Source of the DNA: Klebsiella phage N1M2
DNA length: 64,000 bases
Direction: 5' to 3' (one strand)
Sequence record: MN642089.1
Under the pieces are notes generated by a model, which saw only the letters and a list, made by a program, of their open reading frames with translations, did not search any database and was not told the DNA's origin. Within the stretch, counting starts at the first letter, position 1; each line of letters starts with the position of its first letter. Positions 6,381-27,280 of this stretch are shown in pieces. A program made the translations under genes and the position numbers.

Positions 6381-6393
6381 TCTTATTTGTTTT

Positions 6394-6425: not shown

Positions 6426-6446
6426 ATTATTTTAAAGGAGTTTAGA

Positions 6447-7058: not shown

Positions 7059-7073
7059 TTTAAGGAAATAAAA

Positions 7074-8727: not shown

Positions 8728-8728
8728 A

Positions 8729-9190: not shown

Positions 9191-9195
9191 ATAAC

Positions 9196-9224
9196 TGGGG
9201 AGGTCAACCCTCCCTAATTTTAAT
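9196..9224 (+). terminator. rho-independent terminator
   Basis: GGGGAGG-tcaa-CCCTCCC hairpin then TAATTTT. Confidence 0.6.
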
Positions 9225-9241
9225 AGATCAAGGAAATAGAA

Positions 9242-9568
9242 ATGAAAATCGCATCTGAGAAAATCGCCCGCACCGTAGCTAAACACGCAAATGCCTTTGC
9301 TAAATTCGATTCCAAGTTGGGATCCACTGTCTCCATCATGCTGGCAGATGGCGAAACTAACCGCACCCTGCAATCTAAACTCTACGGCTACAACTCTAAT
9401 CGTACCGGCATCATTATCGAAGTCCGTATCGATGGGTTACTGTTGGATCGCGTTACTCTGACTCGCCCTCAACCGCAGGGTGATTTCCAACATAAGTTTA
9501 AAGTTGATTACACCAAGCTGTACCACATTGCCGCCAAAGAAGGCAACAAAGCTCCCGTAGACGAATAA
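9242..9568 (+). CDS. hypothetical protein
   Basis: 108 aa; AAGGAAATAGAA RBS; host-like codon bias. Confidence 0.55.
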   Translation: MKIASEKIARTVAKHANAFAKFDSKLGSTVSIMLADGETNRTLQSKLYGYNSNRTGIIIEVRIDGLLLDRVTLTRPQPQGDFQHKFKVDYTKLYHIAAKEGNKAPVDE

Positions 9569-9577
9569 GGTGGAATT

Positions 9578-10033
9578 ATGCAACGATACGAGTTTACTAT
9601 TGAGAAGGGTACGCTGGTAGTCCACGATCAAGTAACTAACGGGTCGTTGCGTATTATTTTCAAACCTTTAGGTAAACCGACGATCTCCCCAGCTTTAGAA
9701 GCTTGGAACGATCTAGAAACATCACTCAACTCAGGGAAACTTGAGTTGGGTTTGTTCGGTGTAAATACGATCACTGAACGTAAAGGCTTTAAGTTAGAAG
9801 GTAAGGTCGTGCTGTCATCATCTCACCTTTATGACTGTGAAGTACGCAACGGCAATCTTCATATGGTGTCATTCAAACAGAAGACACTTATCTCTGAATC
9901 CACATTACGATATATGGGTTCTAACAAATTCGGTTTAGTTGCTTTTAAAGACTGTTTCTTTAAAAGTAATCCAGAAGGTGGTTTTAAAAGTAGAACCACT
10001 TCTTACTTCAAAAACAAACTAGTAGAGGTTTAA
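9578..10033 (+). CDS. hypothetical protein
   Basis: 151 aa. Confidence 0.5.
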   Translation: MQRYEFTIEKGTLVVHDQVTNGSLRIIFKPLGKPTISPALEAWNDLETSLNSGKLELGLFGVNTITERKGFKLEGKVVLSSSHLYDCEVRNGNLHMVSFKQKTLISESTLRYMGSNKFGLVAFKDCFFKSNPEGGFKSRTTSYFKNKLVEV

Positions 10034-10034
10034 A

Positions 10035-10538
10035 ATGAACAATTCTCAAGTAGGTCGTTGGAATGTAATCCTTGATGGTAAACTGATCAAAGTGGTTGAT
10101 CGTCAAACTGGCGGTGAGTTGAACATTCACACTACCCACCATCCAGATCCAGGTGAAAATGATCTTAACCCAACCATCGAGATCATTAACGATCTGATTG
10201 AACAGCTGGCTGAACATCGCCTTATTCTTCAGCTGATCGGTAAAGAAAACAACATCTATGTGACCGGAACTAATGTGGTACTGGATGGTAGTGTTTCACT
10301 GCATCGTTGCGATCTTCGTAACCCGCATCTGACTGATGTTGAATTGCGTATCGTCGACACACGCGAAGCCGATCAAGTTCGCATTAACAAATCTACGGTA
10401 TATGAATTCACTTCACCTAAACTTGAAAGTGAACTTCATATTTCCCACTGTCATTTCACTGGTGAACTCAAACCACGTGTCACTAGTGCTCGTACTGAGT
10501 TCTACCTGAATGAATGTCGTAATGGAGATATGTGGTGA
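10035..10538 (+). CDS. hypothetical protein
   Basis: 167 aa. Confidence 0.5.
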   Translation: MNNSQVGRWNVILDGKLIKVVDRQTGGELNIHTTHHPDPGENDLNPTIEIINDLIEQLAEHRLILQLIGKENNIYVTGTNVVLDGSVSLHRCDLRNPHLTDVELRIVDTREADQVRINKSTVYEFTSPKLESELHISHCHFTGELKPRVTSARTEFYLNECRNGDMW

Positions 10539-10879
10539 TAGAAATCAAAGATGGTCTGGTTGACATCTCTGTCTTTGTTACCTTTACCAGACCGATAATC
10601 GAAGGGGTGACAAAGGTACCTGGCGAATTAGGTTATGTTGTTCTAATGGACAAATTACCTAACCGCTTCCCAAATGGCATTGAGTCATTTAAGATGCACT
10701 TCTTGAATTACTTAGATAACCATAATTTACAGCAGGGATATCCATACAACTTAGTTGAGGATTTCCCTATCCGTGTTCTAAACTCTCTCCGCATCTTAAA
10801 ACTTGCAGGTTGTATCAAAGGGTACGACATTGACGATCGGGGAATTATTTCTTATTGCGAGGAAGATGAAGATGACTAA
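10532..10879 (+). CDS. hypothetical protein (acidic C-terminus)
   Basis: 115 aa ending EEDEDD. Confidence 0.5.
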   Translation: MVIEIKDGLVDISVFVTFTRPIIEGVTKVPGELGYVVLMDKLPNRFPNGIESFKMHFLNYLDNHNLQQGYPYNLVEDFPIRVLNSLRILKLAGCIKGYDIDDRGIISYCEEDEDD

Positions 10880-12623
10880 TACTGCTAAAGACATTATCGG
10901 CGCACTTATTTACAACACTAGTGTTCAGTTAGATTTCCCTGATCACAAAAATAAAGAAGGTAAAGTCGACCCTGACAATATCGTAGCCAACTTTGATATG
11001 GTAGAAAGTGGGTACTTGCAGTTTCAGGGTAAAATTTATAGCAAAGATGAACTTACGTCTCTCGTTAACCAAGCGATCTCTCATCGCAATGGTAGTATTC
11101 TTATTGACATCCTTAAGGAATCTGGTAAGATTAAAGACTTCCCTCCGGCGTTTATGGAGAAACTTTATATCACTGCATTTGAGCAAGCTGGTTTTAGTTT
11201 ATACCCTGTTTCCAACCGTAAAGAAATCGATGGTAAGTTATTCGACGTTCCCGAAAAATACCGTACCGGTGTTGGGTATCCTTCAGATAAAGAAGTGGTC
11301 GCTCTTTGCCATTTCTACCTGAAAGGTATCAAGGGTTACGAAGACCCAGAGTCTAAGAAAACCTATCGCAACAAACTGTTTAACCTGTTGCATGTTTATG
11401 CGCACTTGCAGGAAAGTGTTTTGACAGAATCGCTGGGTGTTGAATGGGTTGCCAACTTTAAAGAAGGCAATAAAACATTTGAAGATTTCAAACAGGCTAT
11501 CGATATGGCTACTCAAGGGGAATCCCTTAAATACACTCGTGAAGAACAACCGTATATTTATTTCCAAGGGCGTGTTCATTTGAATGGCCCAGTAGCGATA
11601 CATTCTCCAAATGACCCTGATGAAGAAATCAAGTTCTTGACTAACATCATGGAAAACACTGAAGATCAAGAAAGCGTGGTATTTACCAAGGCCATCGCTT
11701 TTATTCATCGCAGTGCATTCCAACAGGAAATCTATCATTTCCTAACCAGCCTGTATGATGAAAATGAACAGTACTGGCTTGCGGATAATCGCCAACGCGC
11801 TGACTTTGTTTTCAACCTAGTTGGGCGCTATATGGAAGAGTGTCGTGCTAAAACTAAAATCGCATCCACTCGTTATTCTGAACAACCACGTGACCCACAA
11901 CCTACACAAGGAAAAGAACAAATGTTTAATAGCAATCTGACACAAGCGATCCAATTCCTGGCTCATGCCCGTGGCGTGTCGGTAGAAACTTTAGTTGGGG
12001 AACTGAAACAGCAACTTGGTAACAAACAAGTTACTGAGCAACCTAAAGTTCAAATCTCTGGTCCTGATGGTGAAATGCTCGATCAGCTGAAACAAATCTT
12101 CGGTGATGATTGTGTCATCGTTCCTATCTCACAGGGCGATGATATTTCAGAAGCTATTGCCAAAGCTATCGGTAATAAGAAACCTAGCAAAGAACAAGAG
12201 CTGGAGAAAGGTCTGGATGACCTTACCAGTCGTTGGGCTGAAATCCTGGGTGTCACTGATCCAGAAGCTATCGCGCATCTTCGTGCTGCTGCAGCCAAAA
12301 GTGTTCAGCCAAAGGACGAAGTTAAACGTCCTATTACTACTGAAGTCAGACATGCCAGAACTATGGAGTTTGAAGTTCTTGGCGAACATAACGAAGTAGA
12401 AGAACGTTATCGTGGCCTCTGGAATGAAACCACCAAACTGCTGACTATTAATTATAAATCAGTTGGGATGGACTCATATAGTCAGTTAGTTTGTATTCAG
12501 TTTATGGACTACTCTGATGCTGTCTCTACATTTATCGGAATGTGTCATAACTACGGCATCAAGTCAGTTCGCGAAATCATCCAGGATTTTGTTGAAGCTT
12601 ATAACGGTCACTTCATCGAATAA
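10866..12623 (+). CDS. hypothetical protein (~585 aa)
   Basis: ATG at 10866/10872 overlapping the upstream stop (track start 10803 runs deep into the previous gene); ends at a perfect palindromic terminator. Confidence 0.5.
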   Translation: MKMTNTAKDIIGALIYNTSVQLDFPDHKNKEGKVDPDNIVANFDMVESGYLQFQGKIYSKDELTSLVNQAISHRNGSILIDILKESGKIKDFPPAFMEKLYITAFEQAGFSLYPVSNRKEIDGKLFDVPEKYRTGVGYPSDKEVVALCHFYLKGIKGYEDPESKKTYRNKLFNLLHVYAHLQESVLTESLGVEWVANFKEGNKTFEDFKQAIDMATQGESLKYTREEQPYIYFQGRVHLNGPVAIHSPNDPDEEIKFLTNIMENTEDQESVVFTKAIAFIHRSAFQQEIYHFLTSLYDENEQYWLADNRQRADFVFNLVGRYMEECRAKTKIASTRYSEQPRDPQPTQGKEQMFNSNLTQAIQFLAHARGVSVETLVGELKQQLGNKQVTEQPKVQISGPDGEMLDQLKQIFGDDCVIVPISQGDDISEAIAKAIGNKKPSKEQELEKGLDDLTSRWAEILGVTDPEAIAHLRAAAAKSVQPKDEVKRPITTEVRHARTMEFEVLGEHNEVEERYRGLWNETTKLLTINYKSVGMDSYSQLVCIQFMDYSDAVSTFIGMCHNYGIKSVREIIQDFVEAYNGHFIE

Positions 12624-13939: not shown

Positions 13940-14081
13940 GTTCGTAGAACACGTTGTAATCAATTGTTTTAAGTAATACTACTGTTTGTATCATGTAGGT
14001 AGAAAAGTCCCTTAGATTTCGATCTGTGTGACTTTATCTCCATCCGACAAAAACCCAATCTCATTTAAAGGAAATGAAATT

Positions 14082-15032
14082 ATGTCTAAAGACTTTAACC
14101 TGTATCACTTTGGCGGCACTGGTATCAACATTCTTAACCGTTACCTGGAGCAAGGTAAGAACTCCCGCTTTATTGATCAGGTGGTGGCGATGGATACTTC
14201 TGAAGCTAACCCGATTACTGATGGTATTTATCCATTGGAACGTCTGGAAGGTGTAGAAGGTTCTGGCGGTAACCGTAAAGCACATGCTGATAAGTATGCT
14301 GACTTTGTTAAACAGGTATTCGCCAAGTACAAACCAAACAAAGTAAACATTCTGGTTTACTCACTGTCTGGTGGTACCGGTGCATCAATGGGTCCTTATG
14401 CATTGCGTTATCTGCTGCAGAAGAAAATCCCTACACTGGTAATTTGTATCGGTGACAAGTCAACCTTTAATGAAGAGAAGAACACCGTAGAAGCACTGGG
14501 TTCAATGTATAACCAGATCAAGACTGGCTCTCCAGTTCTGTTCAACTACATTGAAAACGGTCAGACCATTTCTCAGGGTCAGGTTAACCAACGTGCTGTT
14601 GGTGAAATTGATAATGCAATCATGATGTTCAACATGGAAAACGAACGCATCGATTACGCAGACATCAAAAACTTCTTCTTCTTTACCGATGTGACTCAGG
14701 CAGATCCAATCATGACTCAGGTGACTTTCCTGGCAGAAGGTGATCTGGGTCGCTATGATCGTAAGCCGGTTGCAGCAATCAGCCTGTATAACAACATCGA
14801 CGAAATCCGCGCACCGTTTGAAAATATGCTTTATCGTAAATCTGGTTTGTTCGGTGAAAGTTTCTCCGGTATGACTGTTCCGGTCCACGCAGTCCTGGAC
14901 CACGGTGATACTATTCAGTCACTGAAAACTCTGATCGAAGATAAAGAAACTAAGAACAATGAACTGGCTGGTCAATTCCGTAACAAGGAAACTGATCTGT
15001 TCGCTGATTCTGATGACGACGGTATGATGTAA
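14082..15032 (+). CDS. phuZ: PhuZ-like phage tubulin (tubulin/FtsZ family GTPase)
   Basis: ATG at 14082 with AAGGAAA RBS (track start 14028 is a GTG extension); GGTGINIL N-terminal motif; tubulin signature SGGTGASMGP; acidic C-terminal tail DSDDDGMM as in PhuZ; ~316 aa. Confidence 0.8.
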   Translation: MSKDFNLYHFGGTGINILNRYLEQGKNSRFIDQVVAMDTSEANPITDGIYPLERLEGVEGSGGNRKAHADKYADFVKQVFAKYKPNKVNILVYSLSGGTGASMGPYALRYLLQKKIPTLVICIGDKSTFNEEKNTVEALGSMYNQIKTGSPVLFNYIENGQTISQGQVNQRAVGEIDNAIMMFNMENERIDYADIKNFFFFTDVTQADPIMTQVTFLAEGDLGRYDRKPVAAISLYNNIDEIRAPFENMLYRKSGLFGESFSGMTVPVHAVLDHGDTIQSLKTLIEDKETKNNELAGQFRNKETDLFADSDDDGMM

Positions 15033-15041
15033 TAACTGGAG

Positions 15042-15068
15042 GCCCTGGCTAGTCCAGGGCTTTTTATA
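15042..15068 (+). terminator. rho-independent terminator
   Basis: GCCCTGG-ctagt-CCAGGGC then TTTTTAT. Confidence 0.7.
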
Positions 15069-15362
15069 TTGCCTATGAAGATCTTATTTAATTTAGCAAA
15101 TCAACGCGGAGCATTGTCCGAAATATCTAAGAACGATATTGGGACAGCACATGCTATTTTATCCAGAGTCTGTCTAGACCAAGGAATCCCAGTAGAACAT
15201 CATCACTTTGATGCCAACATCTCTTTAGAACATGCCATCGTGTATGAAAGCGTAAAGGCATATGCTGAAGAGAAGTTAATGTTTATCCCTACCCCTGACG
15301 TTGCGGTCTTATCTGATCTCGGCAATCTTCAATTCCAACTCACTTTACATAATCGGGAATAA
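15069..15362 (+). CDS. hypothetical protein
   Basis: 97 aa. Confidence 0.45.
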   Translation: MPMKILFNLANQRGALSEISKNDIGTAHAILSRVCLDQGIPVEHHHFDANISLEHAIVYESVKAYAEEKLMFIPTPDVAVLSDLGNLQFQLTLHNRE

Positions 15363-15365
15363 GTC

Positions 15366-15842
15366 ATGTTTAATATCGATAAGCCTACATTGTTTACGGC
15401 TATCGCCATCTCTCTCGAACCCAATCTACGCGATGTAGAAGATAAGAAGCCAGAATACGTTAAGTATTTCCATGTTGTACTTGACATGGTTCTTGGTGTT
15501 ATGAATAGCAAAATCAGAAACATCGATGATGCTATTGATGAGCAATATGGACTTTATCCTGAAGATAAAAATCTTCCCTGGCTTGCTGATACAGTTCGTC
15601 AGTTAGTTGTCGATATCAAATGTCAGTTTATTCAAGCTGGGTTTGATAGTCGCCTGAAATATAAAGTTGTAACCCGTCAGATCGGCATCCACACTAAACT
15701 GTATGGTATCGCAATGGACCTGGATGCAACTTTAGCTGCAATGGCGGATACTCTTCTTGATCCTAAAGAAGATGTCGATCAAACTCTGATAGTGTCTGAG
15801 AACCCAACTTATGAGCAGCTCGAAGCAGCATACAACTGGTGA
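15366..15842 (+). CDS. hypothetical protein
   Basis: 158 aa. Confidence 0.5.
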   Translation: MFNIDKPTLFTAIAISLEPNLRDVEDKKPEYVKYFHVVLDMVLGVMNSKIRNIDDAIDEQYGLYPEDKNLPWLADTVRQLVVDIKCQFIQAGFDSRLKYKVVTRQIGIHTKLYGIAMDLDATLAAMADTLLDPKEDVDQTLIVSENPTYEQLEAAYNW

Positions 15843-16380
15843 GTTTATTCACCTAGGTAAGTTCGATAAGGAGATTGAAGCTTATCTGGAAACAAAAGAA
15901 CATTTAGCATCTACTACCATTATGGAAGATGATAAACCAAGTATCGTAGAAGCTTTGCGTATTTGGTTGGTTAAGAATGTTGGATGTTTTAATATCATCG
16001 GCGATTATTATCAAACAGTCAATCTGAAACTTTGGTATGATCACGATGGACTCACGGAAGAGTTTGATGAATTACTTTTAATGTTCCGAGATTGGTTGAA
16101 TATGACACAAGCTCTGGATACCAAGAAAGTTTATAACTTGTTACGTTATATTAGACCTGACACGTTTATTCTTTTCGAAGGTGAAGTTCCAGTAGAGTTG
16201 ATCCCTCCTCCTATCGAAGAACCGGTTGATCACGAAGTACAAGAAGTCATTAGTTGTATCCAGGAATTTGAACTACTCTTGAAAAAGAGATGTAGCGATA
16301 ACTTTGCTGTTGAGCATTTTATTAGCGATCTATTCCCAACTACTACTACCCATGACTTGATCAAAAAGTATATGGTTTAA
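15811..16380 (+). CDS. hypothetical acidic protein
   Basis: 189 aa; start uncertain (ATG 15811 overlaps the upstream gene by 32 nt; alternative ATG at 15922). Confidence 0.4.
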   Translation: MSSSKQHTTGEFIHLGKFDKEIEAYLETKEHLASTTIMEDDKPSIVEALRIWLVKNVGCFNIIGDYYQTVNLKLWYDHDGLTEEFDELLLMFRDWLNMTQALDTKKVYNLLRYIRPDTFILFEGEVPVELIPPPIEEPVDHEVQEVISCIQEFELLLKKRCSDNFAVEHFISDLFPTTTTHDLIKKYMV

Positions 16381-16388
16381 GGAGTCCT

Positions 16389-16691
16389 ATGGCTAGGATG
16401 TTATCAGTTAACATCTACCCATTACTTCGAATAGTAAAACGGTACGACCTAGACCAGGACCTCTTCTTTAGAATCATTCTGAATTTCCTCTCGCATCGTC
16501 GGGAGGAAATTCTTAATATTCAACTGTCCAAATGGTTTAGCTCATTTGATGTCTCATTAAAAAGTGAGATGAAACCTATTATATACGAACTCCTAAGTGA
16601 GTTAGACTATTCGGATAATGTGGAAGATTATTTCATCTTAAATGGTCGTTTCTATATTAAGGAAAACACTAATGTTACAGAATCAGAATGA
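16389..16691 (+). CDS. hypothetical protein
   Basis: 100 aa; GGAG RBS. Confidence 0.5.
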   Translation: MARMLSVNIYPLLRIVKRYDLDQDLFFRIILNFLSHRREEILNIQLSKWFSSFDVSLKSEMKPIIYELLSELDYSDNVEDYFILNGRFYIKENTNVTESE

Positions 16692-16989
16692 GCAGCCAAT
16701 CGCCCTGTTCTCGCACACCATGACTTTCCCTGGAGTGCCATTAGAAAATTTAGTATCATCCATATCGCTTTTATTATCTGCGTATGGTGTCTCTCACCAA
16801 CTACCAGTTTCACCCACCTTCACATCGGAAGGATTGACCAGTGGTGACAATAATCGTGACCAACGTTTCGTAACTGAATACATGCAGTTCAAGTTAATGT
16901 TGGAAGATCTATCCCGTCAATATACAACTGTACAGTGTACCGCACAATCTAACGGAGCATCGGTATACCTAAGGTTCAGTTGTTACTAG
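16672..16989 (+). CDS. hypothetical protein
   Basis: ATG at 16672 with AAGGAAAAC RBS (track start 16642 lies further inside the upstream gene). Confidence 0.45.
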   Translation: MLQNQNEQPIALFSHTMTFPGVPLENLVSSISLLLSAYGVSHQLPVSPTFTSEGLTSGDNNRDQRFVTEYMQFKLMLEDLSRQYTTVQCTAQSNGASVYLRFSCY

Positions 16990-16998
16990 GAGAGCGTA

Positions 16999-17613
16999 AT
17001 GTACGTTCATATAAACAACTTTGATTATGATGAGTTGCTGAATAACTTAGTTCAGCACTATCATCTAAGTGATGCCCCAATAACTAATGAGATCATTAGC
17101 AAGATCTTTGAAGAATTGGCAGAGCACTATAAATTGAACCAGCGTGAAACTATGACTGAAGATGAAATTGCTTTGGTTGAAGAGTTTATGCGAATTCATG
17201 GTCAGTGGTCTGACTTCCAACCTGGTGATGAAGCTGATATGTTCCTGGAAACTAAAGGAATGGATATTAGTGAATCTCTGGCGGTAATGGAAGGGTTGTT
17301 CTTAGAAGGTGTTACTGAAGATGATGAACTTGATCCGCTTTATGATATAGCAATTAAGTTTACTCAATTCGATTTCACTGATGAAGACTCTATTGGTGAA
17401 TTCAGTGCCTACCTATCTGATCTGATTAGTAAGTATAACAACATTCAGTTTAATGATGCTGAACTGTGTGTGTTAGGACACATCGAACGCTCTTTGGATA
17501 GTTCTGAAATATTAACTGGTATTGAAGTTCTTCCAGTTGCAGGTAAGGTTGTTAAGTATGGGGATACTTTGATAACCTTCCCGATTATCCTGATAAAGGT
17601 TTCTAAACCATGA
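16999..17613 (+). CDS. hypothetical highly acidic protein
   Basis: 204 aa, very rich in D/E (e.g. DDELDPLYDIA, FDFTDEDSIGEF); GGAG RBS. Confidence 0.5.
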   Translation: MYVHINNFDYDELLNNLVQHYHLSDAPITNEIISKIFEELAEHYKLNQRETMTEDEIALVEEFMRIHGQWSDFQPGDEADMFLETKGMDISESLAVMEGLFLEGVTEDDELDPLYDIAIKFTQFDFTDEDSIGEFSAYLSDLISKYNNIQFNDAELCVLGHIERSLDSSEILTGIEVLPVAGKVVKYGDTLITFPIILIKVSKP

Positions 17614-18041
17614 GCGATTTGAACTTACTCCAGAAGAATGACATCATCAACTTCGATATGATCCGTCCTGGTATCTTTGGCGCTCAATACAAGAGCGCTT
17701 TGATTACCGGTATTGTTGATTATAACACTGCCCGGATTATCGATCCAGATGTATATGCCAAACACCAGGCTTTCTATCCTTTCTTTAAAGATTCGGTAGA
17801 TAACGTTAATAACCCAGAAATCTATAACTATCTGATTCTGCAATTGGACCCAACCAAAGCTGATCGTATTGTTATTGGGTTCCCGTGGATTGATAAGGAT
17901 TCACTGAAAACAATCCAGTCTCGTTACGCAACAGTTATTATTCAGAACTTCCAGGAATATCAACGTGCGCCATTAGTTGATTTCTTAGAAGGTATGAACG
18001 TAACCTATACATTAGTAATCGAAGATACAAACAAGAAATAA
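17610..18041 (+). CDS. hypothetical protein
   Basis: 143 aa; overlaps the upstream stop by 4 nt. Confidence 0.5.
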   Translation: MSDLNLLQKNDIINFDMIRPGIFGAQYKSALITGIVDYNTARIIDPDVYAKHQAFYPFFKDSVDNVNNPEIYNYLILQLDPTKADRIVIGFPWIDKDSLKTIQSRYATVIIQNFQEYQRAPLVDFLEGMNVTYTLVIEDTNKK

Positions 18042-18049
18042 TTATCAGA

Positions 18050-18106
18050 TTACTGAGCCTACCATAAGGTAGGCTCGGTAATCTATTTACCCAATTATTT
18101 TTTTTT
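18050..18106 (+). terminator. rho-independent terminator
   Basis: GAGCCTACC-ataa-GGTAGGCTC hairpin then a long T run. Confidence 0.65.
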
Positions 18107-18128
18107 TCTCTTAATGAGGGAATCGATT

Positions 18129-20207
18129 ATGTCATCTGCTGGACCATTCCTCTCAGAAGAATATACCAGTGATCGCAACATCTTAAAACATGCGATTAAT
18201 CAATACTCTTTAGTTGTCAGTCGTGTACGCGGTGAAGATGAAGATACAGTTCGTCAAAACTTGATGAAGTATTTTAAATCTCAACAGGAAAAGTTCCGCT
18301 CTCGTCGTGCTAAAGTTATTATTAAGAATAAGAACGAAGACCGTGAATTAAAAGTCATTCCTTTGTCTTCGGTATTTAAACATGTTCAGTCGAATAACTA
18401 CCACTTTAGTCCATCAATGGTTGCATACACTAACTCAGATAAAGAAGAATGTGTAAACTCCATTGGCACTCGTCTGTTCATCGATAACCGTAAACACTAT
18501 AAAGATCTTCGTCAGGTAGCTAAAGCAAACAACGATCCAGATCTTTACGGTAAATATCACGAATTACAGAACGCCTTTAAGATCTTTAACAACGCCCAGT
18601 CTGGTGCTATGAGTTCTGAAGGTACACCAATTAACAACAAGACTGGTCACACTTCACTGACTTCTACTTGTCGTTGCTTGACTTCTACAGCTAACCTTAT
18701 TAACGAACAGTTCATCGCAGGTAACCGTTTCTATAACACACCTGAGAATACATTACAAGCTATCGTTGCACGTCTTAAAGTGACTGACTATAAAGCACTT
18801 GAAGATGTAATGGAGAAATATAAACTTCATTATGCAACTGTTGATGATGTAATGAAACAAGTTGAATACTGTTCACGTCGTTATTGGGAATCTGAACGTC
18901 ACACTAACATCATTCGTGGTTTCGTTGAGAAACTGTCTGGTTTAGAACGTTCTTCTATTCTTTACACTATGGACCTGGTTCAGTTGTTCAACCATAACAA
19001 AGAAGTTGTTTCTAAGTTCTTTGACCGTTGGGTTGAAATGAATGATCCAGAAGAAGGTAAGACTGCTGACGATTATCTTGCTCCGGATAATGGAGATAAG
19101 TGGACACTGTGTATTTCTAAACTGCCTAACAAGCCACCTAAGGTTGCTGTTAACGCATTGAACGAATCACACATGAAAGTGGAAACTGAATATGGTGACT
19201 TTATGCGTCAATTCTTCCACTCACCTATTCCACCGTCTGGTCTGTTCGATGTTGTTTCCGCAGTTCGTGATTGCGTATTGACTTCTGATACTGACTCCTC
19301 CATTTATACAGTGGATGAAATGATCGAAGCTTATACTCATGACCGTGATAAAGGTGTTAAACTTAACGCAGTTCTGACTTACTTCATTCGTATGATCTCT
19401 GTTGACCAACACCAACAGCTTTCAGCTAACCTCAACGTAACTAAGAAAAACTTACGCATGTTGGGTATGAAGAATGAATACTACTTCGGTGCTTATGTTA
19501 CTACTCTGATGTCTAAACACTATTATGCTAGCCAGCTTATGGTGGAAGGTGTGATGAACCATGAACCAGAAATGGAAATCAAGGGCGTTCACCTTAAGTC
19601 ATCTAAGATTGCATCTAACATCAAAGACTTTGCTCAGAAGTTAATGAATGATACATTGATTGCGATTGAGAAGAAACAGAAACTGAATGCAGCAGAAACG
19701 CTGAAAGAAATTGGTGATCTAGAACGTACGATCATTGATGATATTCATGCGGGTGATTGGAAGTGGTTATCTCGTCAAGGTGTTAAGTCAGCGGCAGCTT
19801 ACTCTAAACCAATGGCTTCGGTTTACTTCTATCATGAACTGTGGGAAAATGTATTTGCTGATAAATATGGTCCTGCTCCAGAGCTTCCATATATCGGTGT
19901 TAAAATGTCAGTTGACTTAGGTAGTAAAACTAAAGTCAAAGAGTTTATTGAAAAGATCGAAGATCGTGAACTAGCTGAGAAGCTTGAGAAGTTCATGGAA
20001 AAAGCAGGTCGTACTGATTTAGGTAACTTGGTGGTTCCTATGGAACGTCTTCAGTTTATGGCAGACATTCCTAAAGAAATCAAGCAGTGTATTGATTATC
20101 GGACAATCATCAAACAGAACCTTAAGTGTGTTTATGAGGTTTTAAACTCGACCGGTTTGTACTTTATGAACGACTCGATCACTCGACTGGTATCTGACGA
20201 ACATTAA
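18129..20207 (+). CDS. family B DNA polymerase, C-terminal fragment (palm motif C plus thumb), split gene
   Basis: VLTSDTDSSIYTV matches motif C (YGDTDS-IY); downstream KNEYYFGA resembles the KKRY/KxY motif; GAGGGAA RBS before the ATG at 18129. Confidence 0.45.
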   Translation: MSSAGPFLSEEYTSDRNILKHAINQYSLVVSRVRGEDEDTVRQNLMKYFKSQQEKFRSRRAKVIIKNKNEDRELKVIPLSSVFKHVQSNNYHFSPSMVAYTNSDKEECVNSIGTRLFIDNRKHYKDLRQVAKANNDPDLYGKYHELQNAFKIFNNAQSGAMSSEGTPINNKTGHTSLTSTCRCLTSTANLINEQFIAGNRFYNTPENTLQAIVARLKVTDYKALEDVMEKYKLHYATVDDVMKQVEYCSRRYWESERHTNIIRGFVEKLSGLERSSILYTMDLVQLFNHNKEVVSKFFDRWVEMNDPEEGKTADDYLAPDNGDKWTLCISKLPNKPPKVAVNALNESHMKVETEYGDFMRQFFHSPIPPSGLFDVVSAVRDCVLTSDTDSSIYTVDEMIEAYTHDRDKGVKLNAVLTYFIRMISVDQHQQLSANLNVTKKNLRMLGMKNEYYFGAYVTTLMSKHYYASQLMVEGVMNHEPEMEIKGVHLKSSKIASNIKDFAQKLMNDTLIAIEKKQKLNAAETLKEIGDLERTIIDDIHAGDWKWLSRQGVKSAAAYSKPMASVYFYHELWENVFADKYGPAPELPYIGVKMSVDLGSKTKVKEFIEKIEDRELAEKLEKFMEKAGRTDLGNLVVPMERLQFMADIPKEIKQCIDYRTIIKQNLKCVYEVLNSTGLYFMNDSITRLVSDEH

Positions 20208-20229
20208 TCAATTCTATGTAAACTTATTG

Positions 20230-20261
20230 AACCCCACCTCGCACAAAGCGGGTGGGGTTCG
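20230..20261. terminator. bidirectional terminator between convergent genes
   Basis: GAACCCCACC-11 nt loop-GGGTGGGGTTC. Confidence 0.65.
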
Positions 20262-20275
20262 TGACAGATATATGT

Positions 20276-21367
20276 TTATTTCAAACGACTAACTTCTTCA
20301 TGCAACATGGAGAAATGCTTCCTCCATATAGGGTCTTTGATTTGGTTTTCCTGAGATGTGACAGACAGTTGATAATAGAGTTTCAAGTCACTACGCAACT
20401 TACCATCTACAGCACCAATAAAGTTACTATACTCTAAATAAGGTTTAACCATCCCAAGAGAAGCAATAGTCCAAACCCAACTCATTTGAACAAAGAACAA
20501 TGACTTACCTGCTTGAGGGAATATCATCTTAGATTGATCAACTGAGATATTGGTAACAGCATTGACTTCGACAAAGTTAGTAAATGATTTCATCGGCTGG
20601 GATAACAGATAGCGATTCTTGAAATCAGTATAGTCAATTAAGTTTTGGAAATAAGGTTCCAAGTTAAATGGACCTTTCCTTACTTCTATTTTCCCAGCAT
20701 TACCATTCAGGTAATTATAGTTGGTCAGCTCATTGTGATACAAATAGAAGTTCATCAATGGCAAACCAGCTAAATAACCATGTGGACTATTACCCCATTC
20801 AACACCACGTTTGAGGTGTCTCCAATATCCTATTACAAGAGCGTACACATCAATCTGAGCGATCGTATAAGCTGGGTTAGCTAACTCATAGACTTTAGTA
20901 TTGATTAGGTCTATGGTGTTCCAGCGCTGTTTTGTGTCAGTTGTGTAAATAGGAAAGATTGGAACTAAGGTATTTATTTCGTTATTGAAGTAACCATTTA
21001 TTTGCGAAGCAGAAGGTTTATCAAATGGAACAACCAAAAGAGTATTGTGATTCTTTTCAGGATACAAACTCAACGGATGGTTCTTTCCTCTATTATAGAG
21101 GGATGTAAAATTGACTGCACTTGCGTATTGTTGAATGTGAGTATCAATTACATTAATTAAGTAGTTGGGTTCCCATTCTACGTTCACGGAAAACATTAGC
21201 AGAAATTGAACTAATGGATTTTCATTGGGAAGAACTCTATTGCCAAGTTTGATCCAGTCTTCATACCGGTCATCATTCCTGGCCATAATACGTCTCAGGT
21301 TTCCGAGTGTACCCCATTCCCTGACTGCGTAGTTTAACCCATTAGGCGAAAGCTTAAAGTAAGACAT
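20276..21367 (-). CDS. hypothetical protein
   Basis: ATG (revcomp) at 21367 with GAGG RBS, MSYFKLSPNG...; the track start 21412 is an upstream extension. Confidence 0.5.
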   Translation of the reverse strand: MSYFKLSPNGLNYAVREWGTLGNLRRIMARNDDRYEDWIKLGNRVLPNENPLVQFLLMFSVNVEWEPNYLINVIDTHIQQYASAVNFTSLYNRGKNHPLSLYPEKNHNTLLVVPFDKPSASQINGYFNNEINTLVPIFPIYTTDTKQRWNTIDLINTKVYELANPAYTIAQIDVYALVIGYWRHLKRGVEWGNSPHGYLAGLPLMNFYLYHNELTNYNYLNGNAGKIEVRKGPFNLEPYFQNLIDYTDFKNRYLLSQPMKSFTNFVEVNAVTNISVDQSKMIFPQAGKSLFFVQMSWVWTIASLGMVKPYLEYSNFIGAVDGKLRSDLKLYYQLSVTSQENQIKDPIWRKHFSMLHEEVSRLK

Positions 21368-21533
21368 TAATAGAAGCCTCTGGAATATCTTCATTAAAAA
21401 ATTAATGAACATATCTATTATATGTAAAAATAAACTTTCAAGGTTAATCCTTGAAAGCTAGACGTGAGTCGCATGTCCATTTGAATGTATTCATACGATT
21501 TAACGTTGCAATTTTATCATCTCTAAAATATTT

Positions 21534-21568
21534 GAAGTCTATATTATTAGAGTGTATAAGGAAACAGA
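21534..21568 (+). promoter_or_regulatory. conserved AT-rich promoter-like motif (CTATATTATTAGAGTGTATAAGG)
   Basis: family member about 60 bp upstream of the chimallin-like gene; 19/19 identity to the core of the 31351 copy. Confidence 0.5.
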
Positions 21569-21624
21569 TGTTTCTATTATCCCTCACCAATCGTTAACGT
21601 TAACTATATATTAAGGAATTCCAC

Positions 21625-23541
21625 ATGTCTCTCGATAACAACATGAACGCAAATAACGCTCAATCTTCTTCTAACAACAACGCTGGTAAAAACACTATGT
21701 CTAATGCAAATCCACTGTTCGGCCTGCTGGGTGAAGCGAACCTGTTCTCTTCTACTCACTCCATCACTGAAGTAAAAGACATCCAGAAATCTCTGGAAGA
21801 AACCATTAAGTATCTGCAGAAGAACACTGCTTCTCAATCTCAGAAGCTGTCCCTCCCGACTCTGGTTCAGTCTATCACTTCCGACATCAGTTCTCAGCTG
21901 CCTGGCCTGACCATCTCCACTGTGATCAATGGCGTCCGTTATGTCATGCCGGTTCTGTTCTACAAAACTGGTGTAACCGAAGCTACAGAAGTGATCATGC
22001 TGGCTAACGAAAACATGCCGCGCGGTATTGCCAAAGTTCCTGCTTCCTTCATGAACAGCGAGCTGATGGAAAAGATCAAGTCTACTTCTGCATTCCACGA
22101 AGGTCAGCAGATGAAGAACGTTGTGATCGTAGCACCGTCTGTAGTTAACCTGGAAACCTTCATCAAGAACGCTGTCAAAGTTGAAGACGTTGTTCCTGAA
22201 GTTCGTACCAACCTGCTGAAAGAGTGGAACACTGCTCTGTACAACCTGGTTGTTCTGGAAGTAACTAAACAGGGTGTTGAATTCCCAACTCCGTTCAAAG
22301 ACGGTAAACTGTTCGGTAAAGACGATGCAGCTGTTGCGCGTATCGAGCCGGTAAACCGTGCTACCATCGACGGCAAACCAACTCCGTTCAACCTGGCGGT
22401 GAAACTGCACACCACCAATAAGAACAACACGCAGAACATGAACAGCAACAACACTCGTTCTATCTGCACCACTTATCTGAACGTATCTCTGGAAGCAATG
22501 TCTCAGCCTCAGTTCTTCCAGGCTCGTCAGCAGCGTCCAGGTCACAACGTCGGTCCTCTGGTTCCGGTAATCTCTACTGGTATCACTATCCCAGGCGAAA
22601 CCCTGAACAACAACAACTCCATGCTGACTGCTCTGCTGGGTCTGTACGCTTCTATCGGTGCAAACCAGATGCAGTTCTTCTCTGAAGCATTCCGTGGTAA
22701 AGAAGTTGGTCACCGTGGTAACATCGGTAACTTCAACAACTATCTGACTCAGATGCTGGGTAGCGCTTACGGCACCGCTCAGATGATCACTGATAAGAAC
22801 ATCACCAATGCAGCAGTTGTTAACCAGTGGCTGAACACCTACGTTGCTCCGAACGCAGTATACGTTCTGGATCTGGCATCCTTCACCGAAGACGTTTCTA
22901 ACTCCGACTTCTGGTGGAACATCATCGGTCAGCCGAATGGTTCTACTTACCATAAAGCTCTGATCAACCTGATGGACGTTCTGTCTAACAAAGCTTTCAG
23001 CCGCATCATCGCTGAGAACGCTGCAAAAGGTCAGAACCGTGATCCTCGTAAAGACTGGACTGCAGGTGATGCAATCCTGAAACCTACTCCGATCATGATG
23101 CCTGCTGGTATCGCTCGTGGTAAAGATGGGAAATGGTTCGACCTGGCAGAAGTTGACGGCATGTTCCTGCGTCAGGAAAACTACTACGGTCAAAACGAAC
23201 CAGCTGTTAATCAGTACCTGGGTCTTATCTGTGGCGCAACCGGTACCGATCCGAAAGCACGTCAGTATGCAATCTACAACCTGCTGAACCAACTGTTCGA
23301 TACCAACGTAATCATCGAAGGTTGGAAACGTCGCTTCGTATGGGAAGATGCATTCTTCAACACTGCAGCACGCGCAATGGCAACTGCTGGTGCAATGACC
23401 ATGTCCGCAAGCAACAACGTATCTGCTTGGACTGTTCAGCACAGCAACGACTACCTGAACTACACCATGTCTGCAGTTCTGCAGCAAGGTATGCAGGTTG
23501 GCGCAATGGGTGGCTTCTCTGGCGCCTACACCCACTACTAA
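21625..23541 (+). CDS. chmA: chimallin-like phage nucleus shell protein (candidate ChmA); major capsid protein not excluded
   Basis: 638 aa (~70 kDa); by eye the strongest host-preferred codon bias in the window (CTG, CGT, GGT, AAC); Asn-rich N-terminal extension; own promoter-like motif and strong terminator; about 7 kb from phuZ as in E. coli nucleus-forming phages. Confidence 0.5.
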   Translation: MSLDNNMNANNAQSSSNNNAGKNTMSNANPLFGLLGEANLFSSTHSITEVKDIQKSLEETIKYLQKNTASQSQKLSLPTLVQSITSDISSQLPGLTISTVINGVRYVMPVLFYKTGVTEATEVIMLANENMPRGIAKVPASFMNSELMEKIKSTSAFHEGQQMKNVVIVAPSVVNLETFIKNAVKVEDVVPEVRTNLLKEWNTALYNLVVLEVTKQGVEFPTPFKDGKLFGKDDAAVARIEPVNRATIDGKPTPFNLAVKLHTTNKNNTQNMNSNNTRSICTTYLNVSLEAMSQPQFFQARQQRPGHNVGPLVPVISTGITIPGETLNNNNSMLTALLGLYASIGANQMQFFSEAFRGKEVGHRGNIGNFNNYLTQMLGSAYGTAQMITDKNITNAAVVNQWLNTYVAPNAVYVLDLASFTEDVSNSDFWWNIIGQPNGSTYHKALINLMDVLSNKAFSRIIAENAAKGQNRDPRKDWTAGDAILKPTPIMMPAGIARGKDGKWFDLAEVDGMFLRQENYYGQNEPAVNQYLGLICGATGTDPKARQYAIYNLLNQLFDTNVIIEGWKRRFVWEDAFFNTAARAMATAGAMTMSASNNVSAWTVQHSNDYLNYTMSAVLQQGMQVGAMGGFSGAYTHY

Positions 23542-23579
23542 TAAATAGTAGTAAAAGCTAAAGTGTGATTAACTAAATT

Positions 23580-23622
23580 AACAGAGAGGGTGGGTGAAAG
23601 CCCTCCTCTCTGTTGTTTTTAT
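23580..23622 (+). terminator. rho-independent terminator
   Basis: ACAGAGAGG-loop-CCTCTCTGT then TGTTTTTAT. Confidence 0.7.
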
Positions 23623-23637
23623 AGGGGTTTTATTTTT

Positions 23638-25227
23638 ATGTCAAGTATGGCAGATGTACTTAACAAATTCGCAGATGAACATATGGTTCCAAGTAAGCTT
23701 TTTGATGCAATGATAAAAGCTACAGGAATAGTACCACAGCAGGATGACCAGTCGTTCTATACCCCAATTTATCCAGACTTCATTGACTTCGATGAGAAAC
23801 ATGATCAGTCTATCACACCACCAATCTATCTGAATGACTTCGACTTTAATATCGAAGAAGATCGTCAGGCAATCATTGAACTACTACGTACAGAGTTCGA
23901 AGGGAACAACTTTGACACTGTAGCTTCTTGTAGTTGTAAGAAGTATCGTAGTAATGCGTATTTAGGTTCCGGCTTTGTTTGTGAAGTTTGTGGTCACGAA
24001 GTGGTTAAACCACTCACCAGTCGTATCGAAACAAAAGTATGGCTTAAACGTCCAGCTAAAGTAGCAGGGTTTATTAGTCCAGCTATTTATGCTGTGTTCT
24101 TCAGCAAACTGAATACCAAATCTCCTAAAGTTAACTTGGTTGACTATTGGGTCAATCCAGATATCCGAAATGAGAAACGGTTTAAAGACGGCAACAATAA
24201 CGCATTTAAAATCGCATGTAAAATCGAAGCATTCCGCGAAACTCTGAATATCCCATATGGGTATAATAGTTTCATCGAAAACATCGATCTTATCATCCGT
24301 AGCGCTATTGAAGCTGATGTTAGTAAAGTGCTGGATCTGACAGAACAAGATCGTCAGTATTATTCTGAGTTCTGGGACAAGTATCGTACTAAAGCAGTAT
24401 TCAAATATTTACCACTTCCAAACAAGATCACCACAGTAGTTGAGTCGGATCAACGAGATCGCTATGTTAATAAAGAACAAACCGATCTGGATAAAATCTA
24501 TTTCACTCTTGCCGACACATATCCTGAATATGATATCCGCGTAGATGAAAACGAAGATCTGATGGGTCGTAATCTGAAAGGTCTGGTAGATGCCCTGGCT
24601 GAAGTACAGAAGAACATTCTGTTCGGTAAGAAAGGGATGATCCGATATCACGCAGGTGCTGGTAAACTTCCATTTACTGGTCGTTCTATTATTACCGGTG
24701 AATCAGGTGTATGTCGTTCAGATACCATTATCCTTCCATGGATGTATGGATTAACTTGTCTGGATAAACACTTAACTTCCTGGTTGTATCGTAAAGGTTA
24801 TACACCGAAGAAAATCAAAGAGATAATCCGAACTGCGGCTCATGCTAAACTTCCGATTATTGAAGAATTCTATACCTGGATTGAAACCAATCGTTATGCA
24901 ATGGTAACGGCCGGTCGAAATCCATCAATCCAATATCTGTCTGCACGTGGGTTCTTTGTTAAGTTTAACCGGGACCTTGATGATAAGTCCATCCGTATTC
25001 CAATTACTACCGTAAAAGAATTCGGTGCTGACTTTGATGGCGATCAGATGTATGTGATCTTTATCCCAGATATGATGTCTAAAATTGAAGCATATTCTAG
25101 CTGGGGTCACCATCAGATGTTGGATCCTAATAAACCATTTAGAACTAGTCGTTTTGCAACGCACACCAAGACTAACCTGCTGAATATTAATTCGCTGTTT
25201 CTTGATGTTCCTATTGAGGAGGATTAA
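23638..25227 (+). CDS. RNA polymerase beta-prime subunit, N-terminal fragment
   Basis: zinc finger CSC-x13-CEVC; catalytic loop GADFDGDQMYV (NADFDGDQM); ATG at 23638 (track GTG start 23590 lies inside the terminator). Confidence 0.8.
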   Translation: MSSMADVLNKFADEHMVPSKLFDAMIKATGIVPQQDDQSFYTPIYPDFIDFDEKHDQSITPPIYLNDFDFNIEEDRQAIIELLRTEFEGNNFDTVASCSCKKYRSNAYLGSGFVCEVCGHEVVKPLTSRIETKVWLKRPAKVAGFISPAIYAVFFSKLNTKSPKVNLVDYWVNPDIRNEKRFKDGNNNAFKIACKIEAFRETLNIPYGYNSFIENIDLIIRSAIEADVSKVLDLTEQDRQYYSEFWDKYRTKAVFKYLPLPNKITTVVESDQRDRYVNKEQTDLDKIYFTLADTYPEYDIRVDENEDLMGRNLKGLVDALAEVQKNILFGKKGMIRYHAGAGKLPFTGRSIITGESGVCRSDTIILPWMYGLTCLDKHLTSWLYRKGYTPKKIKEIIRTAAHAKLPIIEEFYTWIETNRYAMVTAGRNPSIQYLSARGFFVKFNRDLDDKSIRIPITTVKEFGADFDGDQMYVIFIPDMMSKIEAYSSWGHHQMLDPNKPFRTSRFATHTKTNLLNINSLFLDVPIEED

Positions 25228-26864: not shown

Positions 26865-26940
26865 GCGTGGAGCTGTAAAAGGATATTTTAGTAGAGGGAT
26901 CTGGTAGGAGAGTGGATCAAGATTCACTTGTATTTCATTT

Positions 26941-26970
26941 CAGACCTATATTACTTAAGTGATAAACCTA
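26941..26970 (+). promoter_or_regulatory. conserved AT-rich promoter-like motif (CAGACCTATATTACTTAAGTGATAAACC)
   Basis: same CAGACCTATATTA prefix as the 46208 copy. Confidence 0.45.
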
Positions 26971-27009
26971 AACAGTTTTAACTTAATTAACTATAGAGAG
27001 AAACTAACT

Positions 27010-27177
27010 ATGTTCTTCAACAGCCCACATGACTCAGTAGTAATCGGTTCTGCATTCTTCAGCGGTGTTGGTGTACTGGTATTCGGTACTGCTGCATACT
27101 ACGGTATCAAGGCAGCTATCATTCAGTTCATCAATAGCCGTGAAGCAAACCGCCCAATGGCTACTCGCAATAAATAA
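27010..27177 (+). CDS. small hydrophobic membrane protein (56 aa)
   Basis: ATG at 27010 with GAGAGA RBS; FFSGVGVLVFGTAAYYGIKAAII TM segment; host-like codons; own promoter motif and strong terminator. Confidence 0.5.
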   Translation: MFFNSPHDSVVIGSAFFSGVGVLVFGTAAYYGIKAAIIQFINSREANRPMATRNK

Positions 27178-27185
27178 GTCATAAC

Positions 27186-27240
27186 CAGGATCTCCCCTAA
27201 CCGGGAGATCCTGTTATTCTATACTTGTTTATTTTTTTTT
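27186..27240 (+). terminator. rho-independent terminator
   Basis: CAGGATCTCCC-ctaacc-GGGAGATCCTG then a long T run. Confidence 0.75.
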
Positions 27241-27280
27241 GTTTTCATATTTTGATTAGCTTTATATAGAGGAAAGCAAA

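What the first reader, a model, noticed from the sequence alone, without database searches (positions are those of the whole stretch)
14082..23541. Phage nucleus/spindle module: PhuZ tubulin and a chimallin-like abundant protein 7 kb apart
The 14082-15032 ORF carries the tubulin signature SGGTGASMGP and the PhuZ-type acidic C-terminal tail (DSDDDGMM). The 638-aa gene at 21625-23541 shows the strongest expression-type codon bias in the window and has its own promoter motif and terminator. Its size (~70 kDa) fits chimallin, the phage nucleus shell protein. Together these indicate a nucleus-forming jumbo phage. The chimallin call is inference; major capsid protein is the main alternative.
Basis: partly seen in the sequence, partly recalled or inferred. 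Interest (0 to 1): 0.55.

Follow-up and report, generated by a model that had tools for sequence, protein, structure and literature searches.

The report
Phage nucleus shell and spindle genes
This stretch of a giant bacterial virus encodes the tubulin (PhuZ) and the shell protein (chimallin) used to build a nucleus-like compartment inside the host; both calls hold up, but this is an ordinary new relative of already described phages.

Summary
Both parts of the finding are confirmed.

- **PhuZ.** ORF 14082-15032 (316 aa) matches the PHROG 'tubulin PhuZ' family at E 3e-83. Its AlphaFold model superposes on solved PhuZ structures at TM 0.86-0.87. It has the G-box, both catalytic aspartates and the acidic C-terminal tail.
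- **Chimallin.** ORF 21625-23541 (638 aa) matches the PHROG 'nuclear shell protein' family at E 1.9e-127. Its model matches only solved chimallin/PhuN structures (E about 1e-21, target TM 0.68-0.76). The next hit is at E 0.15, and no capsid or sheath protein appears among the listed hits.
- **Expression signals.** The chimallin gene has the strongest codon bias in the window, a conserved AT-rich phage promoter motif and a strong terminator.
- **Source.** The window comes from a jumbo phage about 87% identical in DNA to Serratia phages Yubaba and Sureiya, which their records place in Petsuvirus, the genus of phage OBP.
- **Gene order.** The order PhuZ, small ORFs, DNA polymerase, virion protein on the minus strand, chimallin, RNA polymerase subunit is the same in OBP and EL. 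The 6-8 kb spacing holds in 13 phage records.
- **Limits.** The two genes are not an operon. Nucleus formation is inferred, not shown, for this clade.

Verdict: new member of a known kind; low interest.

The parts
14082..15032 (+). PhuZ, phage tubulin (316 aa, 35.4 kDa, pI 4.95)
   Evidence: PHROG 4733 'tubulin PhuZ' E 3.1e-83 over residues 3-316. Pfam Tubulin E 9.1e-8, at its cut-off; TubZ_C_2 weak and below its cut-off. Solved PhuZ chains 9pm9, 3r4v, 3j5v and 3zbp at E 1e-16 to 2e-19. Model pLDDT 89.9, pTM 0.88. The top 5 PDB fold hits are all PhuZ, TM 0.78-0.87, against 0.65 for c-st TubZ and about 0.6 for FtsZ. G-box at 96-105; D191 and D194 invariant.
21625..23541 (+). Chimallin (ChmA/PhuN), major phage-nucleus shell protein (638 aa, 70.1 kDa)
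   Evidence: PHROG 4795 'nuclear shell protein' E 1.9e-127. A profile of 35 homologues hits phiPA3 PhuN 8fne at E 3.6e-6 and chimallin 7sqq at 0.049. Model pLDDT 75.5, pTM 0.78. The 9 best PDB hits are all chimallin/PhuN, E 1.5e-21 to 7.8e-20, target TM 0.68-0.76; the next hit is at E 0.15. Relatives in RefSeq records are annotated 'nuclear shell protein' or 'chimallin'.
21527..21573 (+). Conserved promoter island upstream of chimallin, containing the AT-rich motif TTGAAGTCTATATTATT (21532-21548)
   Evidence: The motif is 8-fold repeated against 0.42 expected. In the island, 44 of 47 positions are identical in the window, Yubaba and OBP, within an otherwise variable spacer. The motif is also present upstream of EL chimallin. 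A related sequence is annotated 'putative phage promoter' in the EL record.
23579..23623 (+). Intrinsic terminator after chimallin (16-bp interrupted stem, then GUUUUUAU)
   Evidence: The fold gives -25.4 kcal/mol, z -4.41, and 0 of 200 shuffles fold as well.
18114..20207 (+). Divergent family B DNA polymerase, conserved between PhuZ and chimallin (context)
   Evidence: Pfam divDNApol E 5.7e-263. PHROG 2927. Same position in OBP and EL.
20276..21412 (-). Virion structural protein on the opposite strand, conserved neighbour of chimallin (context)
   Evidence: PHROG 14481 E 1.1e-92. Same position and strand in OBP and EL.
23638..25227 (+). Phage multisubunit RNA polymerase beta'-like subunit directly downstream of chimallin (context)
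   Evidence: PHROG 2987 E 6.1e-146. Pfam RNA_pol_Rpb1_2. Same position in OBP and EL.

Best explanation
The window is part of a chimallivirus, a nucleus-forming jumbo phage close to Serratia phages Yubaba and Sureiya and in the same genus as Pseudomonas phage OBP.

The 638-aa gene encodes chimallin. By analogy with 201phi2-1, Goslar and phiPA3 chimallins, it is made early and in large amounts. It would self-assemble into a single-layer square lattice through its N- and C-terminal tail segments docking on neighbouring protomers. That lattice would enclose the replicating phage DNA and keep host nucleases out.

The 316-aa gene encodes PhuZ. By analogy, PhuZ is a GTP-hydrolysing tubulin whose filaments are held together by the acidic C-terminal tail. 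It forms a spindle that centres and rotates the nucleus and carries capsids to it.

Shown here: family membership, predicted folds, conserved catalytic and tail residues, conserved gene order, codon bias, and the promoter and terminator signals.

Inferred: shell assembly, spindle dynamics, timing of expression, and which polymerase reads the promoter.
For: Family profiles for both proteins. Sequence matches to solved PhuZ and a profile match to solved chimallin/PhuN.

Fold matches that are exclusive to chimallin and best to PhuZ.

PhuZ D191 and D194 are invariant in 40 homologues. They align with D187 and D190 of PhuZ-201 in the printed alignment. The C-terminal DSDDDGM aligns with its DEDGM.

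The chimallin model has disordered ends (residues 1-44 and 598-638). Conserved islands sit at 29-47 and 602-611. This matches the N-tail/NTS/core/CTS1/CTS2 layout described for 201phi2-1 chimallin (PMC9365700).

Only one chimallin homologue is found per phage record.

The neighbourhood holds four split RNA polymerase beta/beta' genes and two polymerase genes.

The gene order is the same in OBP and EL. The PhuZ-to-chimallin gap is 6.2-8.4 kb in 13 records.

The codon usage is that of a highly expressed enterobacterial gene.

The AT-rich conserved motif fits the description of jumbo-phage early promoters read by the virion RNA polymerase (PMC7598289).
Against: Identity to the solved chimallins is only 14-17%. 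A single-sequence search of PDB sequences found nothing. The local Pfam copy gave no chimallin hit for the protein itself, although all its homologues carry a precomputed PF25677.

The tail segments are not modelled, so their docking is untested.

In the papers I read I found no microscopy of nucleus formation for OBP or the Serratia Petsuvirus phages.

PhuZ is reported as non-essential and absent from a third of the family (PMC12908238), so its exact role here may differ.
Confidence: 0.93

Rival explanations
1. The 638-aa protein is the major capsid protein (HK97 fold) or a tail sheath protein. Its codon bias would then reflect late structural expression.
For: Size about 70 kDa and the strongest codon bias in the window. 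A virion structural protein gene lies next to it.
Against: No HK97 capsid or sheath structure appears among the listed hits in the PDB or BFVD fold searches. Every significant hit in the PDB search is chimallin/PhuN, and every significant BFVD hit that carries a name is from a jumbo phage, followed by a gap to E 0.15 and above. The PHROG family is the 'nuclear shell protein' family at E 1.9e-127.
Confidence: 0.01
2. The 638-aa protein is a chimallin homologue that has taken on another role, with the shell built by a different protein in this clade.
For: It shares only 14-17% identity with experimentally studied chimallins. I found no direct experiment for this clade.
Against: It is the only homologue in each phage record (one place per record). 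Its position is conserved across clades. It has the expected tail layout with conserved islands. It also carries the highest-expression signals in the window.
Confidence: 0.04
3. The 316-aa protein is a TubZ-type DNA-partition tubulin or an FtsZ mimic rather than a spindle-forming PhuZ.
For: It has a generic tubulin/FtsZ GTPase domain. The Pfam Tubulin score sits exactly at its cut-off, and the match to Pfam's phage-tubulin C-terminal domain (TubZ_C_2) is weak and below cut-off.
Against: The fold is much closer to PhuZ (TM 0.86-0.87) than to c-st TubZ (0.65) or FtsZ (about 0.6). The PHROG PhuZ profile matches at full length. The PhuZ-type acidic tail is present. I saw no TubR/tubC-like partner next to it; the PHROG scan of its neighbours found only families of unknown function.
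Confidence: 0.02

Closest known systems
Chimallin (ChmA/PhuN): 201phi2-1 gp105, Goslar chimallin, phiPA3 PhuN (PDB 7sqq-7sqv, 8igg, 8fne)
   Same: Same length class (638 aa against 631 aa). Same two-domain core by predicted fold (target TM 0.68-0.76). Disordered N-tail and C-terminal tail with conserved islands, as in the NTS/CTS1/CTS2 scheme. One copy per genome.
   Different: Only 14-17% identical. Detectable by profile but not by a single-sequence search. The N-tail is an Asn/Ser-rich low-complexity stretch. Tail docking and lattice geometry are untested.
OBP_057 and EL gp023 'nuclear shell protein', and the Yubaba/Sureiya orthologues annotated 'hypothetical protein'
   Same: 95.3% (Yubaba, Sureiya), 71.8% (OBP) and 29.2% (EL) amino-acid identity. 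Identical gene neighbourhood. Shared promoter island.
   Different: The DNA is about 87% identical to Yubaba. This is below the 95% species threshold as I recall it, so it is a distinct species-level relative. None of these orthologues has been studied experimentally in the papers I read.
PhuZ of 201phi2-1 (3r4v, 3rb8, 3j5v), phiKZ gp39 (3zbp, 3zbq) and Goslar (9pm9)
   Same: Fold TM 0.86-0.87 for four of the five PhuZ entries and 0.78 for the monomeric phiKZ form 3zbp. G-box, both T7-loop aspartates and the acidic C-terminal tail ending in DDDGM.
   Different: 21-22% identity. Filament architecture is unknown; the review reports that relatives vary, for example five-stranded tubes in phage RAY (PMC12908238).

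Membership tests
Chimallin (ChmA) | Significant match to the family sequence profile over nearly the full length | tested here: met
   PHROG 4795 E 1.9e-127, residues 13-628. All 58 homologues carry PF25677. A profile of homologues hits solved PhuN at E 3.6e-6.
Chimallin (ChmA) | Two-domain core fold (novel alpha/beta N-domain plus acetyltransferase-like C-domain) as in solved chimallins | tested here: met
   Model pTM 0.78. The nine best PDB hits are all chimallin/PhuN at E about 1e-21, target TM 0.68-0.76, then a gap to E 0.15.
Chimallin (ChmA) | Flexible N- and C-terminal segments (NTS, CTS1, CTS2) that dock on neighbouring protomers | tested here: inconclusive
   Residues 1-44 and 598-638 have pLDDT below 50. 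Conserved islands sit at 29-47 and 602-611, and W602 is invariant. The layout agrees with PMC9365700, but docking was not modelled.
Chimallin (ChmA) | Self-assembly into a lattice that encloses phage DNA in infected cells | not testable with these tools
   Needs microscopy or cryo-tomography of infected cells.
Chimallin (ChmA) | Encoded in a genome with the chimallivirus core set (two split multisubunit RNA polymerases and others) | tested here: met
   RNA polymerase beta/beta' pieces at 23638-25227, 36573-38681, 38650-40671 and 47455-48762(-). Polymerase genes at 18114-20207 and 54601-56340(-). Only the 64-kb window was checked, not the full 68-gene core.
PhuZ (phage tubulin) | Tubulin/FtsZ GTPase domain with the G-box signature | tested here: met
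   Pfam PF00091 E 9.1e-8, 33 bits, at the cut-off. SGGTGASMGP at 96-105. G97, G98 and G100 are invariant.
PhuZ (phage tubulin) | Fold closest to solved PhuZ rather than TubZ or FtsZ | tested here: met
   The top five hits are PhuZ, TM 0.78-0.87; TubZ is at 0.65 and FtsZ at about 0.6.
PhuZ (phage tubulin) | Catalytic T7-loop aspartates (D187 and D190 in PhuZ-201; numbering counted from the alignment, role from my own knowledge) | tested here: met
   RIDYAD at 189-194 aligns with RLDVHD of 3r4v. D191 and D194 are invariant in 40 homologues.
PhuZ (phage tubulin) | Acidic C-terminal tail used for filament contacts | tested here: met
   DSDDDGMM at 309-316 aligns with the DEDGM end of PhuZ-201. G314 is nearly invariant. 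The contact itself was not tested.
PhuZ (phage tubulin) | GTP-dependent dynamic filaments forming a spindle in infected cells | not testable with these tools
   Needs biochemistry and live-cell imaging.
   No such structure appears among the listed hits in the PDB or BFVD searches.

The most novel reading that the evidence does not exclude
The OBP/EL/Aeromonas/Vibrio branch of chimalliviruses keeps a fixed early-region block: PhuZ, polymerase, chimallin, RNA polymerase subunit. Its chimallin promoter is almost unchanged between phages whose proteins have diverged to about 72% identity. Its chimallin is only about 15% identical to the solved ones. The shell lattice, or its regulation, in this branch might therefore differ in some meaningful way, such as other tail-docking geometry or a dedicated regulator binding the 47-nt island.
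Probability: 0.15. Interest if true: 0.4.

Novelty: new member of a known kind. Interest (0 to 1): 0.18.

Why it matters
The result identifies the source of the window as a chimallivirus and gives names to two proteins. In the closest deposited genomes, Yubaba and Sureiya, one of them is still annotated 'hypothetical protein' and the other only 'tubulin-like protein'.

It adds a Serratia-type member to a branch of the family for which I found no cell-biology data.

The conserved promoter island and the fixed PhuZ-to-chimallin neighbourhood could serve as markers when annotating such phages in metagenomes.

None of this changes current understanding of the phage nucleus.

Tried and rejected
- **Single-sequence search against PDB.** The 638-aa protein found nothing at E <= 0.01. 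A profile and a predicted structure were needed.
- **Local Pfam copy.** It returned only a spurious CD34 match for the 638-aa protein.
- **Host-type promoters.** The sigma-70 scan is not enriched, with 19 sites against 24.3 expected. I do not propose host-type promoters.
- **Short motif core.** ATATTAYY alone is not enriched (19 against 15.4), and my first pattern WATATTATY was too strict (3 against 5). Only the extended motif is significant.
- **Second conserved island.** There is one upstream of PhuZ, TTAAGTAATACTA...TGTATCATGTAGGTA. My search for other copies used a spacer one base too short and gave chance-level results. Whether it recurs is unresolved.
- **Terminator tail motif.** TTATATGTWT is not enriched as a bare pattern (11 against 18.6).
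- **Horizontal transfer.** I considered it as the cause of the higher G+C of the chimallin gene (0.487 against about 0.40). I rejected it because the gene and its position are conserved across genera and the bias is the classic high-expression codon set.
Full report
**Observation**

- ORF 14082-15032 (+) encodes 316 aa from its ATG. A GTG 54 nt upstream is possible, but homologues and Yubaba's annotation support the ATG.
- ORF 21625-23541 (+) encodes 638 aa, 70.1 kDa.
- The quoted peptides are present in the 316-aa protein: SGGTGASMGP at residues 96-105 and DSDDDGMM at 309-316.

The codon-bias claim is correct.
- Among 76 ORFs the 638-aa gene has the lowest effective number of codons (31.9). 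Its GC3 (0.552) is matched only by a 118-aa minus-strand ORF at 5205-5561 (0.551) that I take to be spurious.
- C-ending codons account for 0.85 of its two-fold pyrimidine-ending sets, against 0.24-0.63 in 32 other genes.
- CTG is 94% of its Leu codons, and CGT/CGC and GGT/GGC are about 100% of its Arg and Gly codons.
- PhuZ shows a milder form of the same bias.

**Source of the window**

[quoted passage not shown] It is 72-76% identical in parts to Shewanella SXP01, Pseudomonas OBP, Kosakonia Kc263 and Erwinia AH04.
- The GenBank taxonomy line for Yubaba and for OBP reads Petsuvirus.
- Over the whole window, identity to Yubaba is 83-87% from 12.6 kb onward and 70-80%, with indels, before that.
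- Yubaba and Sureiya were isolated from sewage on S. marcescens LVF3. The paper describes them only at genome level (PMC10070969).

**The 316-aa protein is PhuZ**

- It matches PHROG 4733 'tubulin PhuZ' at E 3.1e-83 over its whole length.
- It matches Pfam Tubulin at that family's cut-off, and the phage-tubulin C-terminal domain weakly.
- It matches the sequences of solved PhuZ proteins from Goslar, 201phi2-1 and phiKZ at E 1e-16 to 2e-19.
- A model built on 40 homologues has pLDDT 89.9 and pTM 0.88.
- Its five best PDB matches are all PhuZ. Four have TM 0.86-0.87 and the monomeric phiKZ form has 0.78. They are followed by c-st TubZ at 0.65 and FtsZ at about 0.6.
- RIDYAD (189-194) aligns with RLDVHD of PhuZ-201. 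Counting along the printed alignment puts that at D187/D190. D191 and D194 are invariant in the family alignment. That these are the catalytic T7-loop residues is from my own knowledge.
- The C-terminal DSDDDGM aligns with the DEDGM end of PhuZ-201.

**The 638-aa protein is chimallin**

- It matches PHROG 4795 'nuclear shell protein' at E 1.9e-127 over residues 13-628.
- tblastn finds one homologue per record in 68 jumbo-phage records. Many of them are annotated 'nuclear shell protein' or 'chimallin' in RefSeq. Identities are 95.3% to Yubaba and Sureiya, 71.8% to OBP, 29.2% to EL and about 25% to Vibrio phages.
- A single-sequence search against PDB sequences found nothing.
- A profile of 35 homologues reached phiPA3 PhuN (8fne) at E 3.6e-6 and 201phi2-1 chimallin at E 0.05.
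- The decisive test was structural. The AlphaFold model (pLDDT 75.5, pTM 0.78) matches nine PDB chains at E 1.5e-21 to 7.8e-20. All nine are Goslar, 201phi2-1 or phiPA3 chimallin, with target-normalised TM 0.68-0.76. The next hit is at E 0.15.
- No HK97 capsid or sheath protein appears among the listed hits below the chimallin group.

The model also reproduces the published layout (PMC9365700). In 201phi2-1 that layout is a dispensable N-tail (1-47), NTS (48-61), N-domain (62-228), acetyltransferase-like C-domain (229-581), then CTS1 (590-611) and CTS2 (622-631) on flexible linkers.
- Here residues 1-44 and 598-638 are disordered.
- Residues 1-28 are a poorly conserved Asn/Ser-rich stretch.
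- Conserved islands sit at about 29-47 and 602-611, and W602 is invariant.
- That these islands dock on neighbouring protomers is inference.

**Expression signals**

- *Repeated motif.* The intergenic regions share TTNWRNNNNATATTAYY. It occurs 8 times against 0.42 expected, and 0 of 100 shuffles reach that count. All copies are on the + strand and upstream of + strand genes.
- *Chimallin copy.* It lies at 21532-21548, inside a 47-nt island (21527-21573). In that island 44 positions are identical in the window, Yubaba and OBP, while the surrounding spacer varies.
- *Phage EL.* The motif is also upstream of EL chimallin. The EL record annotates a closely similar sequence upstream of its PhuZ as 'putative phage promoter'.
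- *Likely promoter class.* A review states that jumbo phages with their own RNA polymerases have roughly 10-nt AT-rich conserved elements near -10 of early genes, read by the virion RNA polymerase (PMC7598289). The motif fits that description. Its assignment to the early class is inference.
- *Host-type promoters.* Sigma-70-like sites are not enriched.
- *Terminator.* Downstream of chimallin, the hairpin at 23579-23615 folds at -25.4 kcal/mol (z -4.4) and is followed by GUUUUUAU, a strong intrinsic terminator.

**Neighbourhood and the word 'module'**

- Between the two genes lie eight small ORFs. Three belong to PHROG families of unknown function and five have no match.
- Next come a divergent family B DNA polymerase (18114-20207; Pfam divDNApol E 5.7e-263) and a virion structural protein on the opposite strand (20276-21412).
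- Directly after chimallin comes an RNA polymerase beta'-like subunit.
- Exactly this order is annotated in OBP and in EL.
- From the coordinates, the gap from the end of PhuZ to the start of chimallin is 6.2-8.4 kb. This holds in 13 records: OBP, EL, AH04, pAEv1810, PS1, D3, LAh10, Miami, phiKp_32, Joad, FishSpeaker, Vibrio phage 5 TSL-2019 and HHBS8_1.
- The pairing is therefore a conserved neighbourhood.
- It is not an operon. Hairpin terminators follow 17610-18041 and 18114-20207, one gene is on the opposite strand, and chimallin has its own promoter and terminator.
- Further along, the window holds three more split RNA polymerase subunit genes, a second polymerase gene, an SbcD-like nuclease and a helicase. 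This is consistent with the family's replication and transcription set.

**Mechanism (from the literature, by homology)**

- Chimallin tetramers link through NTS, CTS1 and CTS2 into a flexible square lattice around the phage DNA (PMC9365700).
- PhuZ filaments centre and rotate the nucleus and deliver capsids by treadmilling. PhuZ is non-essential and missing from a third of the family (PMC12908238).
- I found no microscopy for OBP or the Serratia Petsuvirus phages in the papers I read. Nucleus formation by this phage is therefore a strong inference, not an observation.

**Verdict**

This is a new, species-level relative of known chimalliviruses carrying the expected chimallin and PhuZ genes. 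It is ordinary for the family and of low interest. The useful by-products are the annotation of these two genes, the conserved promoter island and the fixed gene order.

Noticed in passing
window 46147-47403: About 1.26 kb that is absent from Yubaba, where the flanks are contiguous. It carries an HNH endonuclease gene (46348-47412; PHROG 59) with atypical codon usage (GC3 0.257). It has its own copy of the promoter motif at 46206-46222 and lies next to an RNA polymerase beta-like gene (47455-48762, minus strand). It looks like a homing-endonuclease insertion.
   Followed up: partly
window 21604-23535 (- strand): A 643-aa open frame runs antisense to the whole chimallin gene. The chimallin gene has no in-frame TTA, CTA or TCA codons, so the antisense frame has no stops. 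This is a shadow ORF produced by codon bias, not a gene.
   Followed up: yes
window 6392, 12711, 21532, 26939, 31346, 41631, 46206, 53124 (+ strand): Eight copies of the AT-rich motif TTNWRNNNNATATTAYY, often just after a terminator hairpin. They are probably the early promoter set of this phage. The copy at 31346 falls at the start of the mechanically called ORF 31343-33046. The true start of that gene is probably about 50 nt downstream, because the PHROG match begins at residue 24 and Yubaba's CDS starts later.
   Followed up: partly
window, many intergenic regions, e.g. 36086-36157, 45031-45097, 46147-46200, 53067-53110: Terminator hairpins are followed by a TTAT(A)TG-type tail. This resembles the hairpin-plus-TTAT terminator motif reported for phiKZ (PMC10914365). 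The bare tail pattern is not enriched on its own.
   Followed up: partly
window about 27010-27180 (+), inside the gap 26865-27280: An uncalled small ORF (MFFNSPHDSVVIGSAFFSGVGVLVFGTAAYYGIKAAIIQF...) with a hydrophobic stretch. It lies just downstream of a promoter-motif copy and before a terminator, and may encode a small membrane peptide.
   Followed up: no
window 13970-14003: A second conserved non-coding island upstream of PhuZ (TTAAGTAATACTA...TGTATCATGTAGGTA). It is identical in the window, Yubaba and OBP but differs from the early-promoter motif. It may be a different promoter class. My search for other copies was mis-specified.
   Followed up: partly
window 1-12600 and 53150-54405: The left 12.6 kb, made up of small ORFs that are mostly without family matches, is much more diverged from Yubaba (70-80% identity, with indels) than the rest (83-87%). 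A second replaced segment lies at 53150-54405.
   Followed up: no
window 30458-31225, 33046-34590, 34613-36085: Three genes of unknown function (PHROGs 3284, 3141 and 3520) show the next-strongest codon bias after chimallin (Nc 32.5-35.4; CTG 68-100% of Leu). They are likely abundant proteins of unknown role.
   Followed up: no
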